A DNA stretch of 64,000 nucleotides from the human T2T-CHM13v2.0 reference genome, Homo sapiens. The stretch lies in assembly GCF_009914755.1 (NCBI RefSeq), contig NC_060929.1. One strand, written 5' to 3'. The notes under the pieces were generated by a model. It saw only the letters and a program-made list of their open reading frames with translations, was not told the DNA's origin and searched no databases. Below are positions 50,640-61,646 of the stretch, in pieces. Both the position numbers and the translations under genes were made by a program. The first letter of the stretch is position 1. Every line of letters starts with the position of its first letter.

Positions 50640-51060
50640 AGAGAGGAAAGAGAAATTGGGAGAGGAAGTCAGAGAGAAAGAGACAGAGAGTCAAAGAGAG
50701 AGAGAGAGAAAGATACAGAGGTCAAAGAGGGAGTCAGAGAGAGAGAGAAAGAGTGAAAGAGACAGAGAGTCAAAGAAGAGAGAGAAAGAGAGAGGCAGAG
50801 AGAGAGAAAGATACAGAGAGTCAAAGAGGGAGTCAGAGAGAGACAGAAAGAGATAAAAAGACAGAGAGTCAAAGAGAGAGAGAGAGAAAGAGAGAGGCAG
50901 AGAGAAAGAGACACAGAGACAAAGAGAGAGAAAGAGACAGAGAGTCAAAGAGAGAGAGAGAGAAAGAGAGAGGCAGAGAGAAAGAGACACAGAGACAAAG
51001 AGAGAGAAAGAGACAGAGAGTCAAAGAGAGAAAGAGAGAGATAGAAGTAGTAAAGAGAAA
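50640..51060 (+). repeat. AG-rich compound repeat
   Basis: Recurrent GACAGAGAGTCAAAGAGAG units. Confidence 0.9.
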
Positions 51061-52902
51061 ACAGTGTACCCTTGTCCTTTAAAAGCTAGGGTGAATTTAA
51101 GACCTATAATTGATAATTAAAGGTCCTCTCCATGACCCTATAACACTCCAATACCAGCTTGTTGTCAGCGTAAACAAGGGCATAGCCTGAAAGCACTGAG
51201 GCCACTAACAACCCATAGCCTTCCTATCAAAAACCCTTAACTCAGTAACCCGTGGATGGCCCAAATGCATTCACTCTGTAGCAGCAACTGCTTTGCTAAA
51301 GGAAGAAAGTAGAAAAATAACTTTTAGAGGAAACCTCAATGTGAGCACACCTCACCAGTTCAGAACTATCCTAAGTCAAAAAAGCGAAAAGGTGGCTTAC
51401 TAACTCAAAAATCTTAAGGTATGGGGCTATTCTGTTAGAAAAAGATGATTTAACATTAACCACTGATAATTCCCTTAACCCAGCAGGTTTCCTAACAGGG
51501 GATCTAAATCATAATTAATTACCATACAAAGATCAGACCAGACATAGAAGGAACTCCCTTCAGGACAGGATGATAGATGGTTCCTCCCGGGTGACTGAGG
51601 GAAAAAACCACAGTGGGTATTCAGTAAGTGATAGGGAAACTTTTGTAGAAGAAGGGTTGGGAAAATTGCCTAATAGTTGGTAAGCTGTTTGCACTCAGAT
51701 AAGCCTTAAAGTACTTACAGAATCAGGAAGGGGTCATCTATACCAATTCTAAGTTAATTTAAACTAAACAAAGTGTTATTAGTAGCAAAGGATAATTGAA
51801 GTCCCAAACTTACAAGGTTTTCAATAAAGGTAAAGTTTGCTAAAAGTTAGCAGTGTAACCTGTATTCTCCTAACTTTTAATCTTGTGGCCTTAGGCAGTC
51901 TAGTCCACAGACATGAAGGAAGTTTGCTTTGGAAAAGAATGGTTATCATCTTTGGGAAAAAAAAACGGGGGGGAGAATTTATGTAAAAAGAAAGTTACGT
52001 GGTAGAGAGATCTGTTCCAAGATGGCTGAATCGGAACAGCTTCGGTCTGCAGTGCCCAGCGTGACTGATGCAGAAGATGGGTGATTTCTGCATTTCCAAT
52101 TGAGGTACCTGGTTAATCTCACTGGGACTGGCTGGACAGTTGGTGCAGCCCACAGAGGGCGAGCTGAAGCAGGGCAGGGCATTGCCTCACCCGGAAAGTG
52201 TGATGGGTAGGGGGATTTCCCTTTCTTAGCCAAGGGAAGCTGGGACAAACTGTACCTGGAAAAACAGGACACTCCCACCCAAATACTGCACTTTTCCCAA
52301 GGTCTTAGCAACTGGCAGACAAGTGCTATTGCTGAGGCTCGAGTAGGTAAACAAAGTGGCTGGGAATTTCGAACTGGGTGGAGCCCACTGCAGCTCAGCA
52401 AAGCCTACTGCCTCTAGACTCCACCTCTGTGGGCAGGGCTTAGCTGAATAAAAGGCAGCAGACAACTTCTGCAGACTTAAATGTTCCTGTCTGACAGCTC
52501 TGAAGAGAGCAGTGGTTCTCCCAACATGGCATTTGAGCTCTGAGAATGGACAGACTGCCTCCTCAAGTGGGTCCCTGAACCCTGTGTAGTCTAACTCAGA
52601 TACATCTCCCAGTAGGGGCCGACAGACGCCTCATGTAGGTGGGTGCCCCTCTGGGATGAAGCTGTTCTGCAATATTTGCTGTTCTGCAGCCTCTGCTGGT
52701 GATACCCAGGCAAACAGGTAAACAGGGTTTGGAAGAGACCTCCAACAAACTTCAACAGCTCTGCAGCTGAGGGACCTGACCGTGAAAAGGAAAACTAACA
52801 AACAGAAAGCAATAGCACAACATAAACAAAAAGGACATCTACACCAAAACCCTATCTGCAGGTCACCAACATCAAAGACCAAAGGTAGATAAAACCACAA
52901 AG

Positions 52903-53928
52903 ATGGGAAGAAACCAGAGCAGAAAAGCTGAAAATTCTAAAAATCAAGTGTCTCTTCTCCTCCAAAGGATCACAGGTCCTCACCAGCAATAGAACAAAGC
53001 TGGACAAAGAATGACTTTGACAAGCTGACAGAAGTAGGCTTCAGAAGGTTGGTAATAACAAACTTCTCTGAGCTAAAGGAGCATGTTCGAACCTATCGCA
53101 AGGAAGCTAAAAACCTTGAAAAAAGGTTAGACGAATGGCTAACTAGAATAAACAGTGTAGAGAAGACCTTAAATGACCTGATGGAGCCGAAAACCATGGC
53201 ATGAGAACTTTGTGACACACGCAGAAGCTTCAATAGCTGATTTGATCAAGTGGAAGAAAGGGTATCAGTGATTGAAGATCAAATTAATGAAATAAAGTGA
53301 GAAGACAAGGTTAGAGAAAAAAGAGTAAAAAGAAATGAGCAAAGCCTCCAAGAAATATGGGACTATGTGAAAATACCAAATCTACGTTTGATAGGTGTAC
53401 CTGAAAGTGATGGGGAGAATGGAACCAAGTTGGAAAACACTCTGCAGGATATTATCCAGGAGAACTTCCCCAACCTAGCAAGACAGGCCAACATTCAAAT
53501 TCAGGAAATACAGAGAACACCACAAAGATACTCCTCGAGAAGAGCAACCCCAAGACACATAATTGTCAGATTAACCAAAGTTGAAATGACGGAAAACATT
53601 AAGGGCAGCCAGAGAGAAAGGTCGGGTTCCCACAAAGGGAAGCCCATTGGACTAATAGCAGAACTCTCGGCAGAAACCCTACAAGCCGGAAGAGAGTGGA
53701 GGCCAATATTCAACATCCTTAAAGAAAAGAATTTTCAACCCAGAATTTCATATCCAGCCAAACTAAGCTTCATAAGTGAAGGAGAAATAAAATCCTTTAC
53801 AGACAAGCAAATGCTGAGAGATTTTGTCACCACCAGGCCTGCCTTACAAGAAAGAGCTCCTGGAGGAAGCACTAAACATGGAAAGGAACAACTGGTACCA
53901 GCCACTGCAAAAACATGCCAAATTGTAA
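52903..53928 (+). pseudogene. L1 ORF1p remnant
   Basis: ATG at 52903; PNLRLIGVPESDGENGTKLENTLQDIIQENFPNL; stops and frameshifts. Confidence 0.92.
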
Positions 53929-53991
53929 AGACCATCAATGCTAGGAAGAAACTGCATCAACTAATGAGCAAAATAACCAGCTAACATCATA

Positions 53992-57822
<3,831 letters not shown>

Positions 57823-58552
57823 ACAATGAGATTACTTGTAGACAGGGCAGGGAACATTACACACTGGGGCCTGTCGTGGGGTGGGGGGCTAGGGGAGGGA
57901 TAGCATTAGGAGAAATACCTAATGTAAATGAGGAGCTGATGGGTGCAGCAACTAACGTGGCACATCTATACCTATGTAAGAAACCTGCACGTTGTACACA
58001 TGTATCCTAGAACTTAGAGTATAATAAAAAAAATCAGGCTATCTAGAATATACATTAAAAAAGGAGTAAGCAGTAATGAAGAAGAAAAAATTAGAAATAT
58101 TGATTAAGAAAATGATAATTGTTGAAATAAAACTGTGAACGCAATGACTAGCAGAAGAATGAGTAGGTAAGGGAAAGAGTCAAGAAGCACTCCCTAAAGG
58201 CATTAGGAAGGAATAAAGTGATAGAAAGTGTAAGAGAAACATTAAGAGGTATGGTGGATAGAAATAGAAATGTGAATATCGCCTCAAAGAAGTCCCCAAA
58301 GGAGAAAAAAGCAGTAAATGGAGTAGAAGAACTACTTGAAAAAATAATACCAAGTATTTTCCTGAGTTAAACAAATATGTAAGACATCAGATTGAATGTG
58401 TTCAGAGAGTTCCAAATAGAATGGATAATTAAGCTTTTGCCTTCCCGCTCCCTCCTTCTTTCCCCGTTTTGTTGCGAGGCTTCCCAACTGCCCCTTGACT
58501 CTTCTCCCCCTTTTCCACCCGCCTGCGCCCCCGCAGGAGCCTGGGACCGCCT

Positions 58553-58672
58553 GTGGGCAGCCATACCAGCCTGAAAGCACCCAGTCTCATCTGATCTCGG
58601 AAGCTAAGCAGGGTAGGCCTGGTTAGTGCTTGGATGGGATTCCGACCGGGAATGCTGGGTGATGTAGGCTTT
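58553..58672 (+). pseudogene. 5S rRNA pseudogene
   Basis: About 83% identical to human 5S by hand alignment to the recalled sequence; CTGATCTCGGAAGCTAAGCAGGGT, GGTTAGT and TTGGATGGGA retained; ends TGTAGGCTTTT. Confidence 0.93.
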
Positions 58673-59819
58673 TGGCTTCCCACTCCCTCCCTCTTTCCCA
58701 CTTTTGTCGCCGGGCTTACCAACCGCCTCCTGACTCTTCTCCCCCTTTTTCACCCAAAAAGAAGAAAAAGAAAAAAGAAAGAATGGATAAGTAAATACCC
58801 CACATTAAATACATTATAATAAACATTTCAAAGAGAAAATTATAAAATGTTCCAGAGATAAAATTGCTCAGTAAAGATGAATAACTATCAGATTATTATC
58901 AGACATTTCCATAGCAACACTATAAAGGTAAGAAAGCAATAAAAATTGTTCAAAATTAAAAAAAAATTATATGGTAAATTCTTGTCCTAAAATAAATTAA
59001 CTCGTTGTTTAAAGAAAGGGATGTTTGCAACAAGTCAGAAAGTTGAGGCATGTTGAGGAATTGTCTGTGAAAGTCGTGAAAAAAAAGTTATAAAAGAGAA
59101 TTTATGCAAGAAATGTTGCATAATTTAATAGTAATTAGGCTTCCTGAGTGTAAAACTATTGAAGAAACACTTTATGTGCAAGGTGTGTAAGAAAAATAAA
59201 ATATACTTTTGGTTAAAAGATTATAAGGAGGCATAAGAATGTGGATTTTTACCTACATTAAAAGGTTAAAAATATTTTGTTTTAAAGGTTTAAGCAAGTT
59301 TTAAAACGTTAATTGTAAAGGAAATTCTATGTGTAAACATATTAGCTAAAGTTAAAGGGGTATCATGCAGTTTTTCCGTGGACTGGACGTTAAAATAAAA
59401 GCACAGTGGGTTTTTCTTAAAACACTAACTGCTCTTTAACAAAATTATAAAAGGTTAAATAGAGTCTATGGAAATCTTACCTTATGGTCAGACATTAAAA
59501 TTTGATAATTATGTCTATAGGGTTTTATTAAAATCAAGTTTAACATTAATAACACACTAATATAAAGGTAAAATTTAGCTTATCTGGTATAAAATCATAC
59601 AGGAAGCATTGTCAAATGTAAAAGGGTGTTTGGGTTTCTTTGGTCTAACAACTAATAAAAATAGGTGCCAAAGGAAATTTCTCAGCAGGGAGGCACTAAG
59701 GACTATAAAGTCCACTGCTGGTGTTCCCAAATTTAAAACAAAAGATCAGTTTCTCAGAAATTATACACTTGGTTTATCTTCCACTTTCCTTTCTCTCAAA
59801 ACTAAATGTCTTTTAGCAC

Positions 59820-60076
59820 AGGTACCACCCCTAGAATTTCCAGTAAATCAGCACCAGCCTGGGGATCACACTCTTGTCAAAGGGTGGAAAGAAGGAAAAT
59901 TTGTGCCAGCCTGGGAAGGACCCTACCTAGTGCTGCTAACCACTGAGACTGTTGTTCGTACCGCGGAAGGGGGTTGGACACATCACACCCGAGTCAAGTA
60001 AGCGCCGTTATCATCAGAATCATGGGCCATTGTTCCTGGATCAAGCCCTACCAAACTAAAGCTAAGAAAAGTGTAG
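59820..60076 (+). pseudogene. HERV-IP integrase C-terminal remnant
   Basis: QPGDHTLVKGWKEGK...WEGPYLVLLTT...GWTHHTRVK. Confidence 0.85.
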
Positions 60077-60099
60077 TCTATCTATCTTTTCCTTTCCTT

Positions 60100-61646
60100 T
60101 CTGAATCCAGTGCCTATAGCCATTACTATTCCTACCACTAGCAACTCTAACCCCACTTTTGAGCATTTTTATGGTTTAGGAGTAGAGGTCACTGGAAAGG
60201 ATCCTATAGGTTTCTTTAAGATGTGGTTTGTTCTCCCTCCTCCACCTCCTACAACTGCCCCTTTCCCAAACCTATGAAATCAAACTATGCCTCGCCTCAT
60301 GCCAAATGACAAAAGCAAGGTCTCAGTAGTAGAAATAGAAGACCTAAGGCAAACCATAGCCATTGAAACAGAGTAAAAAGATGTAAATCCCTGGTTAAAA
60401 TGGATTAAATATTCCGTTCGCACTTGAAACAAAAGCGACTGTTACTGTTGTGTGCACAGTAGGCCAGAGGCCCAGGTTGTTCCCTTTCCACTGGGATGGT
60501 CCTCAAATCAACTGGACATGGAGTGCATGGTAGCTCTTTTTCAAGATTCTACCGCCTGGAATAACAAATTGTGCCAAGCTCTTTCTCTGCTATTTCCTGA
60601 AGTTCAACACGCTGTGGGTCAGCCCCCAAGGGCCATCCAGCCTCCATCTTCCAAAGCCAATTTTACCTCATGTCTCCAATGACAAGGGGAAAAATTTGGC
60701 ATTCCCTGGAGACTTAACAGGATGCAGGGAAGTCAGGCACTTCCAAGAGCTGACCCAACAGTCTGCCCTTATTCATCCCTGACTGGTTGTATGGTGGTAT
60801 TAGGGAGGACCTTTACTGGACACTCTGCCAAATAATTAGAGCAGTACTTATGGTCTAATTCAATTGGTTATCTCTTTTACTCTGGCATTTCATCAACTGG
60901 AGGAAGGAAAAATAAGACATCGTAAAGTGAAAGAGGCCCCTTATGGGTCTTTCAACTCTCATGTCTATTTAGACGCAATTGGAGTCCCACTGGGAATACC
61001 AGATCAATTTAAAGCCCAAAATCAAATAGCTGCAGGATTTCAGCCAGTATTTTGGTAAGTTACAATTAATAAAAATGTAGGTTTGATAAACTACATTTAT
61101 TGCAACCAACAGCGATTTATTAACTACCCTAGAGATGCTGTTAAAAGAATAGCTGAGCAATTAGGGGCTACTAGCCAGATGGCTTGGGAAAATAGGATAG
61201 CCTGAGACATGATATTAGCAGAAAGAGGAGGAGTTTGCATCATGATTAAAACTCAGTGTTGTACCTTCATCCCAAACAATACCGCCCCTAATGGAAGTAT
61301 AACAAAGGCATTGCAAGGTCTGACTGCTCTGTCCAGTGAGTTAGCCAGCAACTAAGGGTAAATGGGCCCTTTACAGGATGCCTAGAAAAGTGGTTTGGTA
61401 AATGGAAAGGAATAATAGCCTCAATTCTTAACTTCCCTTGCAGCCGTAATGGGTGTACTTACTCTTGTTGGGTGCTGTATCATACCATACATCTGTGGGT
61501 TGGTGCAGAGGCTCATAGAAATGGCACTTACTAAATCCTCCCTTAACTATCCTCCACCTTATCCAGAGAAGCTTATTCTTTTGGAAAATCAAGCAGAACA
61601 ACTAAGCCAAGACATGTTAAAGAAGTTTGAAGAGAAAGAGCTGTAA
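60100..61646 (+). pseudogene. HERV-IP env remnant
   Basis: Basic cleavage region, DAIGVPLGIPDQFKAQNQIAAGF, ENRIA*DMILAERGGVCIMIKTQCC, TM segment GVLTLVGCCIIP; many stops. Confidence 0.85.

What the first reader, a model, noticed from the sequence alone, without database searches (positions are those of the whole stretch)
51986..58976. Full-length L1 with a ~0.93-kb 3' transduction that carries the 5S retrocopy
Seen: the L1 ends at ~58033, but the interrupted HERV-IP sequence resumes only at ~58960. The left flank AAAGAAAGTTACGTGGTA (ending 52004) is echoed by AAAAAAAATTATATGGTA (ending 58976), a degenerate TSD. The extra segment 58034-58955 resembles old L1M sequence, contains the 5S insert, and ends with AATAAA (58938-58943) ~15 bp before an A run. 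Known: this is the signature of L1 3' transduction. Inference: the segment tags the source L1 locus, and the 5S cassette may have moved twice.
Basis: partly seen in the sequence, partly recalled or inferred. Interest (0 to 1): 0.72.

Follow-up and report, generated by a model that had tools for sequence, protein, structure and literature searches.

The report
L1 insertion with transduced 5S flank
A dead full-length L1 jumping gene landed in an old endogenous retrovirus together with about 0.9 kb copied from chromosome 6, including a 5S rRNA pseudogene; this is an ordinary, well-known by-product of L1 copying.

Summary
Window 52005-58966 is one insertion. In 32 of 37 related ERV loci the two flanks abut with exactly 10 shared bases, so the TSD is at least 10 bp.

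The insert has four parts:
- a 6,029-bp dead L1 ending in A8;
- a 23-nt tag of foreign origin;
- 901 bp (58057-58957) copied from CHM13 chr6:41,068,524-41,069,484, minus strand (92-93% identity outside the 5S cassette);
- an AATAAA 14 nt before an A9 tail.

The chr6 parent already carries the same 5S cassette at the same site with the same TSD. A diverged inverted duplicate 35 kb away lacks the cassette. So the 5S copy did move twice.

The parent locus has no L1 beside it in this assembly. The chr6 homology begins at a T|AAAA L1-endonuclease-type site.

Best reading (about 0.7): a 3' transduction from a source L1 that sat at that chr6 site and was never fixed or was later lost. The 23-nt tag is left from an earlier short transduction.

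Main rival (about 0.2): a template-switch chimera.

This is a known kind of event with low novelty. Primate orthologues could not be checked.

The parts
51986..52004 (+). 5' copy of the target-site duplication. The certain part is 51995-52004 (TTACGTGGTA). The A-rich part 51986-51994 is only possibly duplicated.
   Evidence: the flanks overlap by 10 bp in 32 of 37 uninterrupted related loci.
52005..58033 (+). Full-length, dead L1PA-type element of 6,029 bp, ending in A8 (58026-58033).
   Evidence: Pfam finds L1 ORF1 domains at 53301-53984 (E 6e-49, 8e-40, 9e-11) and RVT_1 at 55642-56463 (E 8e-32). The ORF2 region is split into at least 8 stop-to-stop pieces. The 5' end lines up within about 15 nt with the 5' ends of most of the 38 scored relatives that cover it; 36 of 38 begin at query positions 1-15.
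58034..58056 (+). 23-nt tag between two A runs. It is not from the chr6 parent and resembles an old L1 3'-UTR-like repeat in antisense.
   Evidence: Only 12 of 23 positions match chr6. Smith-Waterman scores over 40 kb of chr6 are no better than for shuffled queries. The genome holds 17 hits at up to 3 mismatches against 2 for the control pattern. Six of these hits lie in one repeat family.
58057..58428 (+). First part of the stretch copied from chr6 (an old interspersed repeat, probably an L1 ORF1 region). It starts with A6 (58057-62) and ends with the 5' TSD copy of the 5S cassette (58418-58428).
   Evidence: 93.0% identity to chr6, K2P 0.074.
58429..58779 (+). 5S retrocopy cassette: spacer, 5S (58553-58670), 85 nt of spacer again, and an A-rich tail (58756-58779). 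A 91-nt direct repeat lies at 58430-58520 and 58665-58755.
   Evidence: Rfam; direct repeat; the same cassette sits at the same site in chr6; an inverted paralogue on chr6 lacks it.
58780..58957 (+). Second part of the chr6-derived stretch. It begins with the 3' TSD copy of the 5S cassette (58780-58790) and contains AATAAA at 58938-58943.
   Evidence: 91.6% identity to chr6, K2P 0.089. Both chr6 paralogues continue beyond 58957 where the window has poly(A).
58958..58966 (+). Terminal poly(A) remnant (A9), 14 nt after the AATAAA.
58967..58976 (+). 3' copy of the target-site duplication (TTATATGGTA).
58977..60001 (+). The host repeat resumes here. It is the internal (pol) region of a gamma-retrovirus-like ERV. 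The integrase C-terminal match falls in ORF 59579-60001.
   Evidence: MLVIN_C E 2.5e-6 at 27.5 bits, against a cut-off of 29.2.

Best explanation
One target-primed reverse-transcription event inserted a read-through L1 RNA into the pol region of an ERV on chr5.

Inferred history:
1. A full-length L1 already carried a short 23-nt 3' tag from an earlier locus.
2. That L1 sat on chr6 at the T|AAAAC site next to chr6:41,069,484 (CHM13, minus strand), inside an old repeat that already held a 5S retrocopy.
3. Transcription ran past the L1's own signal and ended about 0.9 kb downstream, at or near an AATAAA.
4. The RNA was copied into chr5.
5. The source L1 allele on chr6 was never fixed, or was later lost.

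Shown: the single insertion with one TSD, the chr6 origin of 58057-58957, the prior presence of the 5S cassette, and the poly(A) signal and tail.

Inferred: that an L1 ever sat at the chr6 site, and that the 23 nt are an earlier transduction.
For: - Host contiguity with a 10-bp overlap in 32 of 37 related loci.
- The L1 alone has no TSD of its own: 58034 onward does not repeat the left flank.
- 58057-58957 matches one locus on chr6 at 93.0% and 91.6% outside the cassette, and includes the same 5S cassette and its TSD.
- The chr6 repeat runs on beyond both ends of the copied stretch, so chr6 is the parent.
- AATAAA lies 14 nt before the A9 tail. This is within the 10-40 nt window reported for transduction sources (PMC9311842, passages read).
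- Identity to chr6 drops from 93% to 12 of 23 exactly at 58057. The probability of that drop at 7.5% divergence is 2e-7.
- The chr6 side of this boundary reads T|AAAA. That motif occurs at 8 of 1,960 local positions; starts of A runs of 4 or more occur at 26 of 1,960.
- The architecture, with a non-L1 part 3' of a complete L1, is the transduction order. It is not the order of the catalogued chimeras (bioRxiv 10.1101/2025.02.02.635956, passages read).
- Non-reference progenitors and tags of 7-997 nt are documented (PMC9311842).
Against: - No L1 lies next to the parental stretch in CHM13. The only L1PA within the 40 kb of chr6 searched (30 kb around the parent and 10 kb around its paralogue) is 5'-truncated, 3.4 kb away and in the opposite orientation.
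- No sibling insertion shares the 0.9-kb stretch or the 23-nt tag next to an L1 end. Of the 16 non-self hits, 15 were read in context and none follows an L1 3' end.
- The internal A run at the tag/chr6 junction is only 6 nt, of which 4-5 can come from chr6 itself. Almost nothing is left of the supposed source poly(A).
- chr6 now reads AATAAG where chr5 reads AATAAA.
- The A-run boundary would also suit a microhomology-guided template switch.
Confidence: 0.7

Rival explanations
1. Template-switch (or RNA-ligation) chimera. Reverse transcription began in trans on a polyadenylated chr6 transcript. At the A run near 58057 the nascent cDNA jumped onto the poly(A) end of a full-length L1 RNA that carried a 23-nt read-through tag. 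No L1 ever sat on chr6.
For: - The parental locus has no L1.
- The internal A run is short (6 nt) and overlaps chr6's own AAAA, as microhomology would give.
- L1 chimeras made by template switching or ligation exist, and their acceptor RNAs are usually joined at their 3' ends (passages).
Against: - The catalogued chimeras have the foreign RNA 5' of a truncated L1 3' end, in line with cis preference. Here a complete L1 is 5' of the foreign part.
- It needs a trans-mobilised cellular RNA plus a jump to a whole 6-kb L1 RNA. That is rarer than 3' transduction, which I recall at roughly one in ten to one in five L1 insertions; this figure comes from memory, not from a call.
- The T|AAAA boundary is also what an L1 insertion site looks like.
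Confidence: 0.2
2. Two separate insertions. A processed retrocopy of the chr6 transcript entered the ERV first, and an L1 later landed exactly at its 5' edge (or the reverse order).
For: Nested insertions are common in this window's repeats. This is general knowledge and no call supports it for this locus.
Against: - Only one TSD pair exists, and it brackets the whole 6,962 bp.
- Neither the L1 alone nor the extra stretch alone is flanked by a duplication.
- The second insertion would have to hit the boundary to the base.
Confidence: 0.03
3. DNA-level duplication or gene conversion moved the chr6 stretch beside a pre-existing L1.
For: The chr6 region lies in an old inverted segmental duplication, so the area is duplication-prone.
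Against: - The copied stretch ends in a poly(A) tail 14 nt after AATAAA, at a point where both chr6 paralogues continue.
- It is bounded by the TSD of the whole insert.
- Both are marks of an RNA intermediate.
Confidence: 0.02

Closest known systems
L1 3' transduction. The defining papers (Moran 1999, Goodier 2000, Pickeral 2000) are recalled and were not read here. PMC9311842 was read in passages.
   Same: A complete L1 with its own A run, followed by non-L1 flank in the same orientation. A downstream poly(A) signal and a second tail. One TSD around everything. The flank maps to one other locus. The length (0.9 kb) is within the reported 7-997 nt.
   Different: The parental locus has no L1 in the assembly searched, so the progenitor is inferred.
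Serial (two-step) 3' transduction used to trace L1 lineages (recalled; no paper read here).
   Same: Two foreign segments in series after the L1, each preceded by an A run: L1, A8, 23 nt, A6, 0.9 kb, A9.
   Different: The origin of the 23-nt tag was not found. It lies in a repeat family, so it cannot be placed.
L1 chimeric insertions (U6/L1, 5S/L1 and others). bioRxiv 10.1101/2025.02.02.635956, passages read.
   Same: Two RNAs joined in one TSD-flanked insertion. A 5S sequence is involved.
   Different: In those chimeras the small RNA is fused 5' of a truncated L1, and 5S is usually truncated and antisense. Here the 5S is a passenger inside a genomic flank 3' of a full-length L1. It had its own earlier insertion with its own TSD.
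5S rRNA retropseudogenes (RNA5SP genes).
   Same: A 5S-like sequence with an A-rich tail and an 11-bp TSD inside another repeat.
   Different: The cassette is longer than one unit: spacer, 5S, then spacer again. This copy arose by hitch-hiking, not by its own retroposition.

Membership tests
L1 3' transduction | An L1 3' end with an A run, followed directly by non-L1 sequence on the same strand. | tested here: met
   sequence; L1 domains upstream.
L1 3' transduction | A second poly(A) tail at the end of the extra sequence, with a poly(A) signal 10-40 nt upstream. | tested here: met
   AATAAA at 58938-43 and A9 at 58958-66. Both parental paralogues continue past this point.
L1 3' transduction | One target-site duplication brackets the L1 plus the extra sequence, and the host is contiguous without them. 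| tested here: met
   A 10-bp overlap of the flanks in 32 of 37 related loci. The orthologous empty site was not testable.
L1 3' transduction | The extra sequence maps to a unique locus elsewhere. | tested here: met
   chr6:41,068,524-41,069,484, at 93.0% and 91.6% identity outside the cassette.
L1 3' transduction | That locus lies immediately 3' of a full-length source L1. | tested here: not met
   No L1 is adjacent in CHM13. Other haplotypes and primates could not be searched.
L1 3' transduction | The parental homology begins at an L1 endonuclease-type site. | tested here: inconclusive
   The boundary is at chr6 T|AAAA, found at 8 of 1,960 local positions. However, an A run would also favour a template switch.
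L1/small-RNA chimeric insertion | The foreign RNA is fused 5' of a 5'-truncated L1 3' end. | tested here: not met
   The foreign part is 3' of a complete L1. Definition taken.
5S rRNA (Rfam RF00001) | A covariance-model score above the gathering threshold. | tested here: met
   70.2 bits against 38, model positions 1-120. Helix I carries non-standard pairs, so this is a pseudogene by sequence. Function was not tested.
HERVIP10FH / gamma-like ERV (host) | Retroviral pol domains of gamma type; a family-level match. | tested here: inconclusive
   MLVIN_C at 27.5 bits, below the 29.2 cut-off (E 2.5e-6), at 59579-60001. No repeat library was on hand, so the family name was not tested.
L1M (identity of the copied stretch) | Homology to L1 ORF1. 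| tested here: inconclusive
   One blastn match to the ORF1 region of the window's own L1, E 3e-4. Pfam gave none and BLASTP none.

The most novel reading that the evidence does not exclude
The composite may be a 'reverse-order' chimera. ORF2p would have begun on a cellular polyadenylated chr6 RNA and then switched, through A/T microhomology, onto the poly(A) end of a complete L1 RNA. That would give an insertion that mimics a 3' transduction although no L1 ever sat at the parental locus. If such mimics are common, some 'progenitor-less' transductions in genome catalogues are mis-assigned.
Probability: 0.2. Interest if true: 0.4.

Novelty: new member of a known kind. Interest (0 to 1): 0.2.

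Why it matters
It matters little beyond annotation.

- It explains why pseudogene RNA5SP190 sits inside an L1/ERV nest: it is a second-hand copy of a chr6 5S retrocopy.
- It gives an order of events on chr6: an inverted duplication, then the 5S insertion, then an L1 passage, then the copy to chr5.
- It provides a lineage tag (23 nt plus 0.9 kb) for an extinct L1 progenitor.
- It is a clean test case for telling lost-progenitor transductions from template-switch mimics once primate assemblies are compared.

Tried and rejected
- Sibling or source loci. Whole-genome searches with 58034-58417, 58780-58976 and 58418-58790 found only the two chr6 places for the non-5S parts.
- An L1 near the chr6 parent. 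A blastn of window 51001-60000 against 40 kb of chr6 found only a 5'-truncated L1PA on the opposite strand.
- Origin of the 23-nt tag.
  - At up to 2 mismatches there was one other hit, and it is not next to an L1.
  - At up to 3 mismatches there were 17 hits against 2 for the control.
  - Six hits lie in an old L1-3'-UTR-like repeat in antisense.
  - Nine are unrelated single places with no L1 end upstream.
  - One of the nine, chr5:136,516,641, is preceded by TTAAAAA. It is only a weak candidate.
- Homology of the tag to chr6 at the expected place. The single chr12 relative gave an ambiguous alignment. The chr6 upstream stretch has no other relatives in the genome. I rejected this idea because of the 12 of 23 identity.
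- The 'L1M' label. Pfam with stops read as X gave 0 families in 9 frames. BLASTP to the window's L1 ORF1 found nothing useful. blastn gave one weak hit.
- L1 subfamily. The 5' UTR search gave 80-88% identity to 39 scored places out of 7,577 candidates, with no close sibling. No subfamily name can be given without a repeat library.
- RNA5SP190 occurs in one paper, which is unrelated by its title and abstract in the listing. A search on 5S pseudogene and transduction listed nothing on this locus among the 12 titles shown.
Full report
**What is in the sequence**

Reading the two boundaries gives this anatomy:
- The left flank ends ...AAAGAAAGTTACGTGGTA at 52004.
- An L1 5' UTR starts at 52005.
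- The L1 ends ...AGTATAAT plus A8 at 58033.
- 23 nt follow (58034-58056), then A6 (58057-58062).
- About 0.9 kb of A-rich old repeat follows, interrupted by a 5S cassette.
- AATAAA lies at 58938-58943 and A9 at 58958-58966.
- TTATATGGTA lies at 58967-58976, and the flank continues from 58977.

Rfam finds 5S rRNA at 58553-58670 on the plus strand, at 70.2 bits against a gathering score of 38. This was the only hit in 51000-60500 at E up to 0.01.

The L1 is 6,029 bp long.
- Pfam finds the three L1 ORF1 domains in 53301-53984 and RVT_1 in 55642-56463.
- The ORF2 region is broken into at least eight stop-to-stop pieces, so the element is dead.
- Its first bases align with the first bases of other genomic L1 5' UTRs. 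Of the 38 scored places that hold the 5' part, 36 begin at query positions 1-15. The element is therefore full length.

**Is it one insertion?**

I searched the window's own assembly with 605 nt of left flank and 604 nt of right flank. The right-flank query began with the 10-nt 3' TSD copy.
- Both flanks belong to one multi-copy repeat. There were 816 and 1,204 first-look candidates, 40 scored each, at 83-93% and 88-92% identity.
- Among the 38 fetched loci, 37 hold both flanks.
- In 32 of these the projected end of the left flank and the start of the right flank overlap by exactly 10 bp. The overlap is 9 bp in 3 loci and 15 bp in 1, and 1 locus is disrupted.
- Two pairs of loci are overlapping cuts of the same place, so this is 31 of 35 unique places with exactly 10 bp.

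Uninterrupted copies therefore read straight through the site. The window carries a duplication of at least those 10 bases around 6,962 inserted bases.

A 19-20-nt TSD would put the nick at a TTTTT/A-type site, while a 10-nt TSD would not; which applies is left open.

The L1 by itself has no flanking duplication.

**What the host is**

An ORF 0.6-1.0 kb downstream (59579-60001) matches the MLV integrase C-terminal domain at E 2.5e-6. Its 27.5 bits fall just under Pfam's 29.2 cut-off. This fits the pol region of a gamma-like ERV. The name HERVIP10FH could not be tested, because no repeat library was available.

**Where the extra 0.9 kb comes from**

Genome searches gave these results:
- 58034-58417 gave, beside itself, chr6:41,069,126-41,069,484 (minus strand) at 93% from query base 23 on. 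It also gave a second chr6 place (41,034,226-41,034,355, plus strand) at 83%, and four weak hits at 69-77%.
- 58780-58976 gave chr6:41,068,524-41,068,698 (minus strand, 91%) and chr6:41,034,356-41,034,533 (plus strand, 87%).
- The cassette (58418-58790) gave chr6:41,068,696-41,069,125 (minus strand) over its whole length. About 39 other places matched only the 5S and the roughly 80 nt after it (534 candidates, 40 scored).

A pairwise alignment, scored, shows:

| Window stretch | Identity to chr6 | K2P |
|---|---|---|
| 58057-58417 | 93.0% (333 of 358) | 0.074 |
| 58791-58957 | 91.6% (153 of 167) | 0.089 |
| Cassette spacers | 84-89% | not quoted |

Each copy also has its own deletions in the cassette.

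The chr6 repeat continues on both sides of the copied stretch. Where chr6 and its paralogue read on (...GTTCAAAATTTT...), the window has the A9 tail. So chr6 is the parent and chr5 is an RNA-mediated copy.

chr6 now reads AATAAG where chr5 reads AATAAA. Which state the transcribed allele had is unknown.

**The 5S cassette moved twice**

- In both chr5 and chr6 the cassette sits at the same point of the old repeat. It has an A-rich tail and the same duplication: AGAATGGATAA at 58418-58428 and at 58780-58790.
- The second chr6 place reads straight through that point.
- That place is one arm of an old inverted segmental duplication. chr6:41,028,500-41,038,499 matches 41,077,526-41,065,562 at 76-89% identity (82-88% for the collinear blocks). 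It lacks both the cassette and a 3.5-kb L1PA fragment present in the other arm.

The order of events is therefore:
1. the inverted duplication;
2. the 5S retrocopy entering one arm;
3. the copy of that arm's stretch to chr5.

**The junction after the L1**

The first 23 nt after the L1's A8 are not from chr6.
- Only 12 of 23 positions match, against 93% immediately after. The probability of that at 7.5% divergence is about 2e-7.
- Smith-Waterman scores of the 23-mer over 40 kb of chr6 (10-12) equal those of shuffled queries (mean 10.4, maximum 13).
- Genome-wide, the 23-mer has 17 hits at up to 3 mismatches, against 2 for the reversed control.
- Six of these hits lie at the same position of one old repeat. 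From memory, that repeat looks like the antisense 3' end of old L1 families.
- The other nine 3-mismatch hits are unrelated single places, and the single 2-mismatch hit lies downstream of an Alu. None of the 16 follows an L1 3' end.

So the tag is a piece of a repeat copy whose locus cannot be placed.

The chr6 homology then starts at A6 in chr5, which corresponds to GCAT|AAAAC in chr6. T|AAAA occurs at 8 of 1,960 local positions, and starts of A runs of 4 or more occur at 26 of 1,960.

**Is there a source L1?**

No.
- On chr6 the old repeat is continuous across the boundary.
- The only L1PA within the 40 kb of chr6 searched (30 kb around the parent and 10 kb around its paralogue) is 5'-truncated (chr6:41,072,875-41,076,362). 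It is 91% identical to the window's L1, lies 3.4 kb away and is on the opposite strand.
- No sibling insertion carries the 0.9-kb stretch.

**Interpretation**

The layout is the classic one for 3' transduction: a complete L1, A8, foreign DNA on the same strand, a poly(A) signal, a tail, and one TSD around everything. The series A8, 23 nt, A6, 0.9 kb, A9 looks like two successive read-throughs. The first would be a short one at a grandparent locus. The second would be a 0.9-kb one at chr6.

The passages read in PMC9311842 report transduced lengths of 7-997 nt, signals 10-40 bp before the cleavage site, and non-reference progenitors. An absent progenitor is therefore not unusual, least of all for an event this old. 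With recalled neutral rates, K2P 0.074-0.089 implies tens of millions of years.

I put this reading at about 0.7.

The main rival, at about 0.2, is a template switch from a chr6 poly(A) RNA onto the tail of an L1 RNA.
- It is favoured by the missing source and by the very short internal A run.
- It is disfavoured because the catalogued chimeras have the opposite order, with the foreign RNA 5' of a truncated L1 (bioRxiv 10.1101/2025.02.02.635956, passages), and because it requires mobilisation in trans.

Two independent insertions or a DNA-level copy are very unlikely, given the single TSD and the poly(A) end.

**What could not be done**

- No primate or other human assemblies were available.
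- No repeat library was available. The L1 subfamily, 'L1M' and 'HERVIP10FH' remain labels from reading, not from a tool.
  - 'L1M' has only one weak blastn hit to L1 ORF1 in its favour.
  - Pfam and BLASTP gave nothing.

**Verdict**

It is refined by the identified chr6 parent, the 23-nt earlier tag and the missing progenitor. This is an ordinary instance of a well-known process.

Noticed in passing
window 58429-58779; L013 (chr7:130,009,623-130,009,915); L015-L030: The 5S cassette is longer than one unit. It starts with the last 9 nt of a 5S plus spacer, then runs through a 5S, then repeats 85 nt of the same spacer (a 91-nt direct repeat at 85% identity, spacing 235). About 18 other genomic copies, many of them pericentromeric or acrocentric, carry leader, 5S and a trailer of roughly 150 nt. 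The chr7 copy again shows 5S, trailer, then the start of a second 5S. The real 5S array on chr1 matches only the 5S itself. The template was therefore tandem, or possibly circular, with a unit of roughly 0.3 kb.
   Followed up: partly
window about 52324 (L1 5' UTR): All 38 scored relatives that cover both sides carry about 118-124 extra bases between query positions 319 and 320. This L1 therefore has a deletion of about 120 bp in its 5' UTR that appears to be private to it. Whether it overlaps the known KZFP-binding region of L1PA 5' UTRs was not tested.
   Followed up: no
L071-L074 (chr6:41,028,500-41,038,499 against 41,065,562-41,077,526): An old inverted segmental duplication at 82-88% identity in its collinear blocks. 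One arm gained the 5S cassette and a 3.5-kb 5'-truncated L1PA. The other arm gained a 1.8-kb insert and lacks about 1.25 kb that includes the transduction boundary.
   Followed up: partly
window 58520-58560 against L072 (chr6 cassette): Relative to the chr6 parent, the chr5 copy has lost about 34 nt of leader plus about 26 nt more. Its first 5S bases therefore seem to come from the leader. The chr6 copy has lost roughly 15-20 nt inside the 5' half of its 5S. This is my reading of the alignments. The MAFFT alignment is unreliable in that region.
   Followed up: no
L086 (chr5:136,516,641-136,516,663, plus strand): A 3-mismatch match to the 23-nt tag, directly preceded by TTAAAAA. That is what the empty site of a grandparent L1 could look like. 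With about 2 chance hits expected from the control, this is only a weak lead.
   Followed up: no
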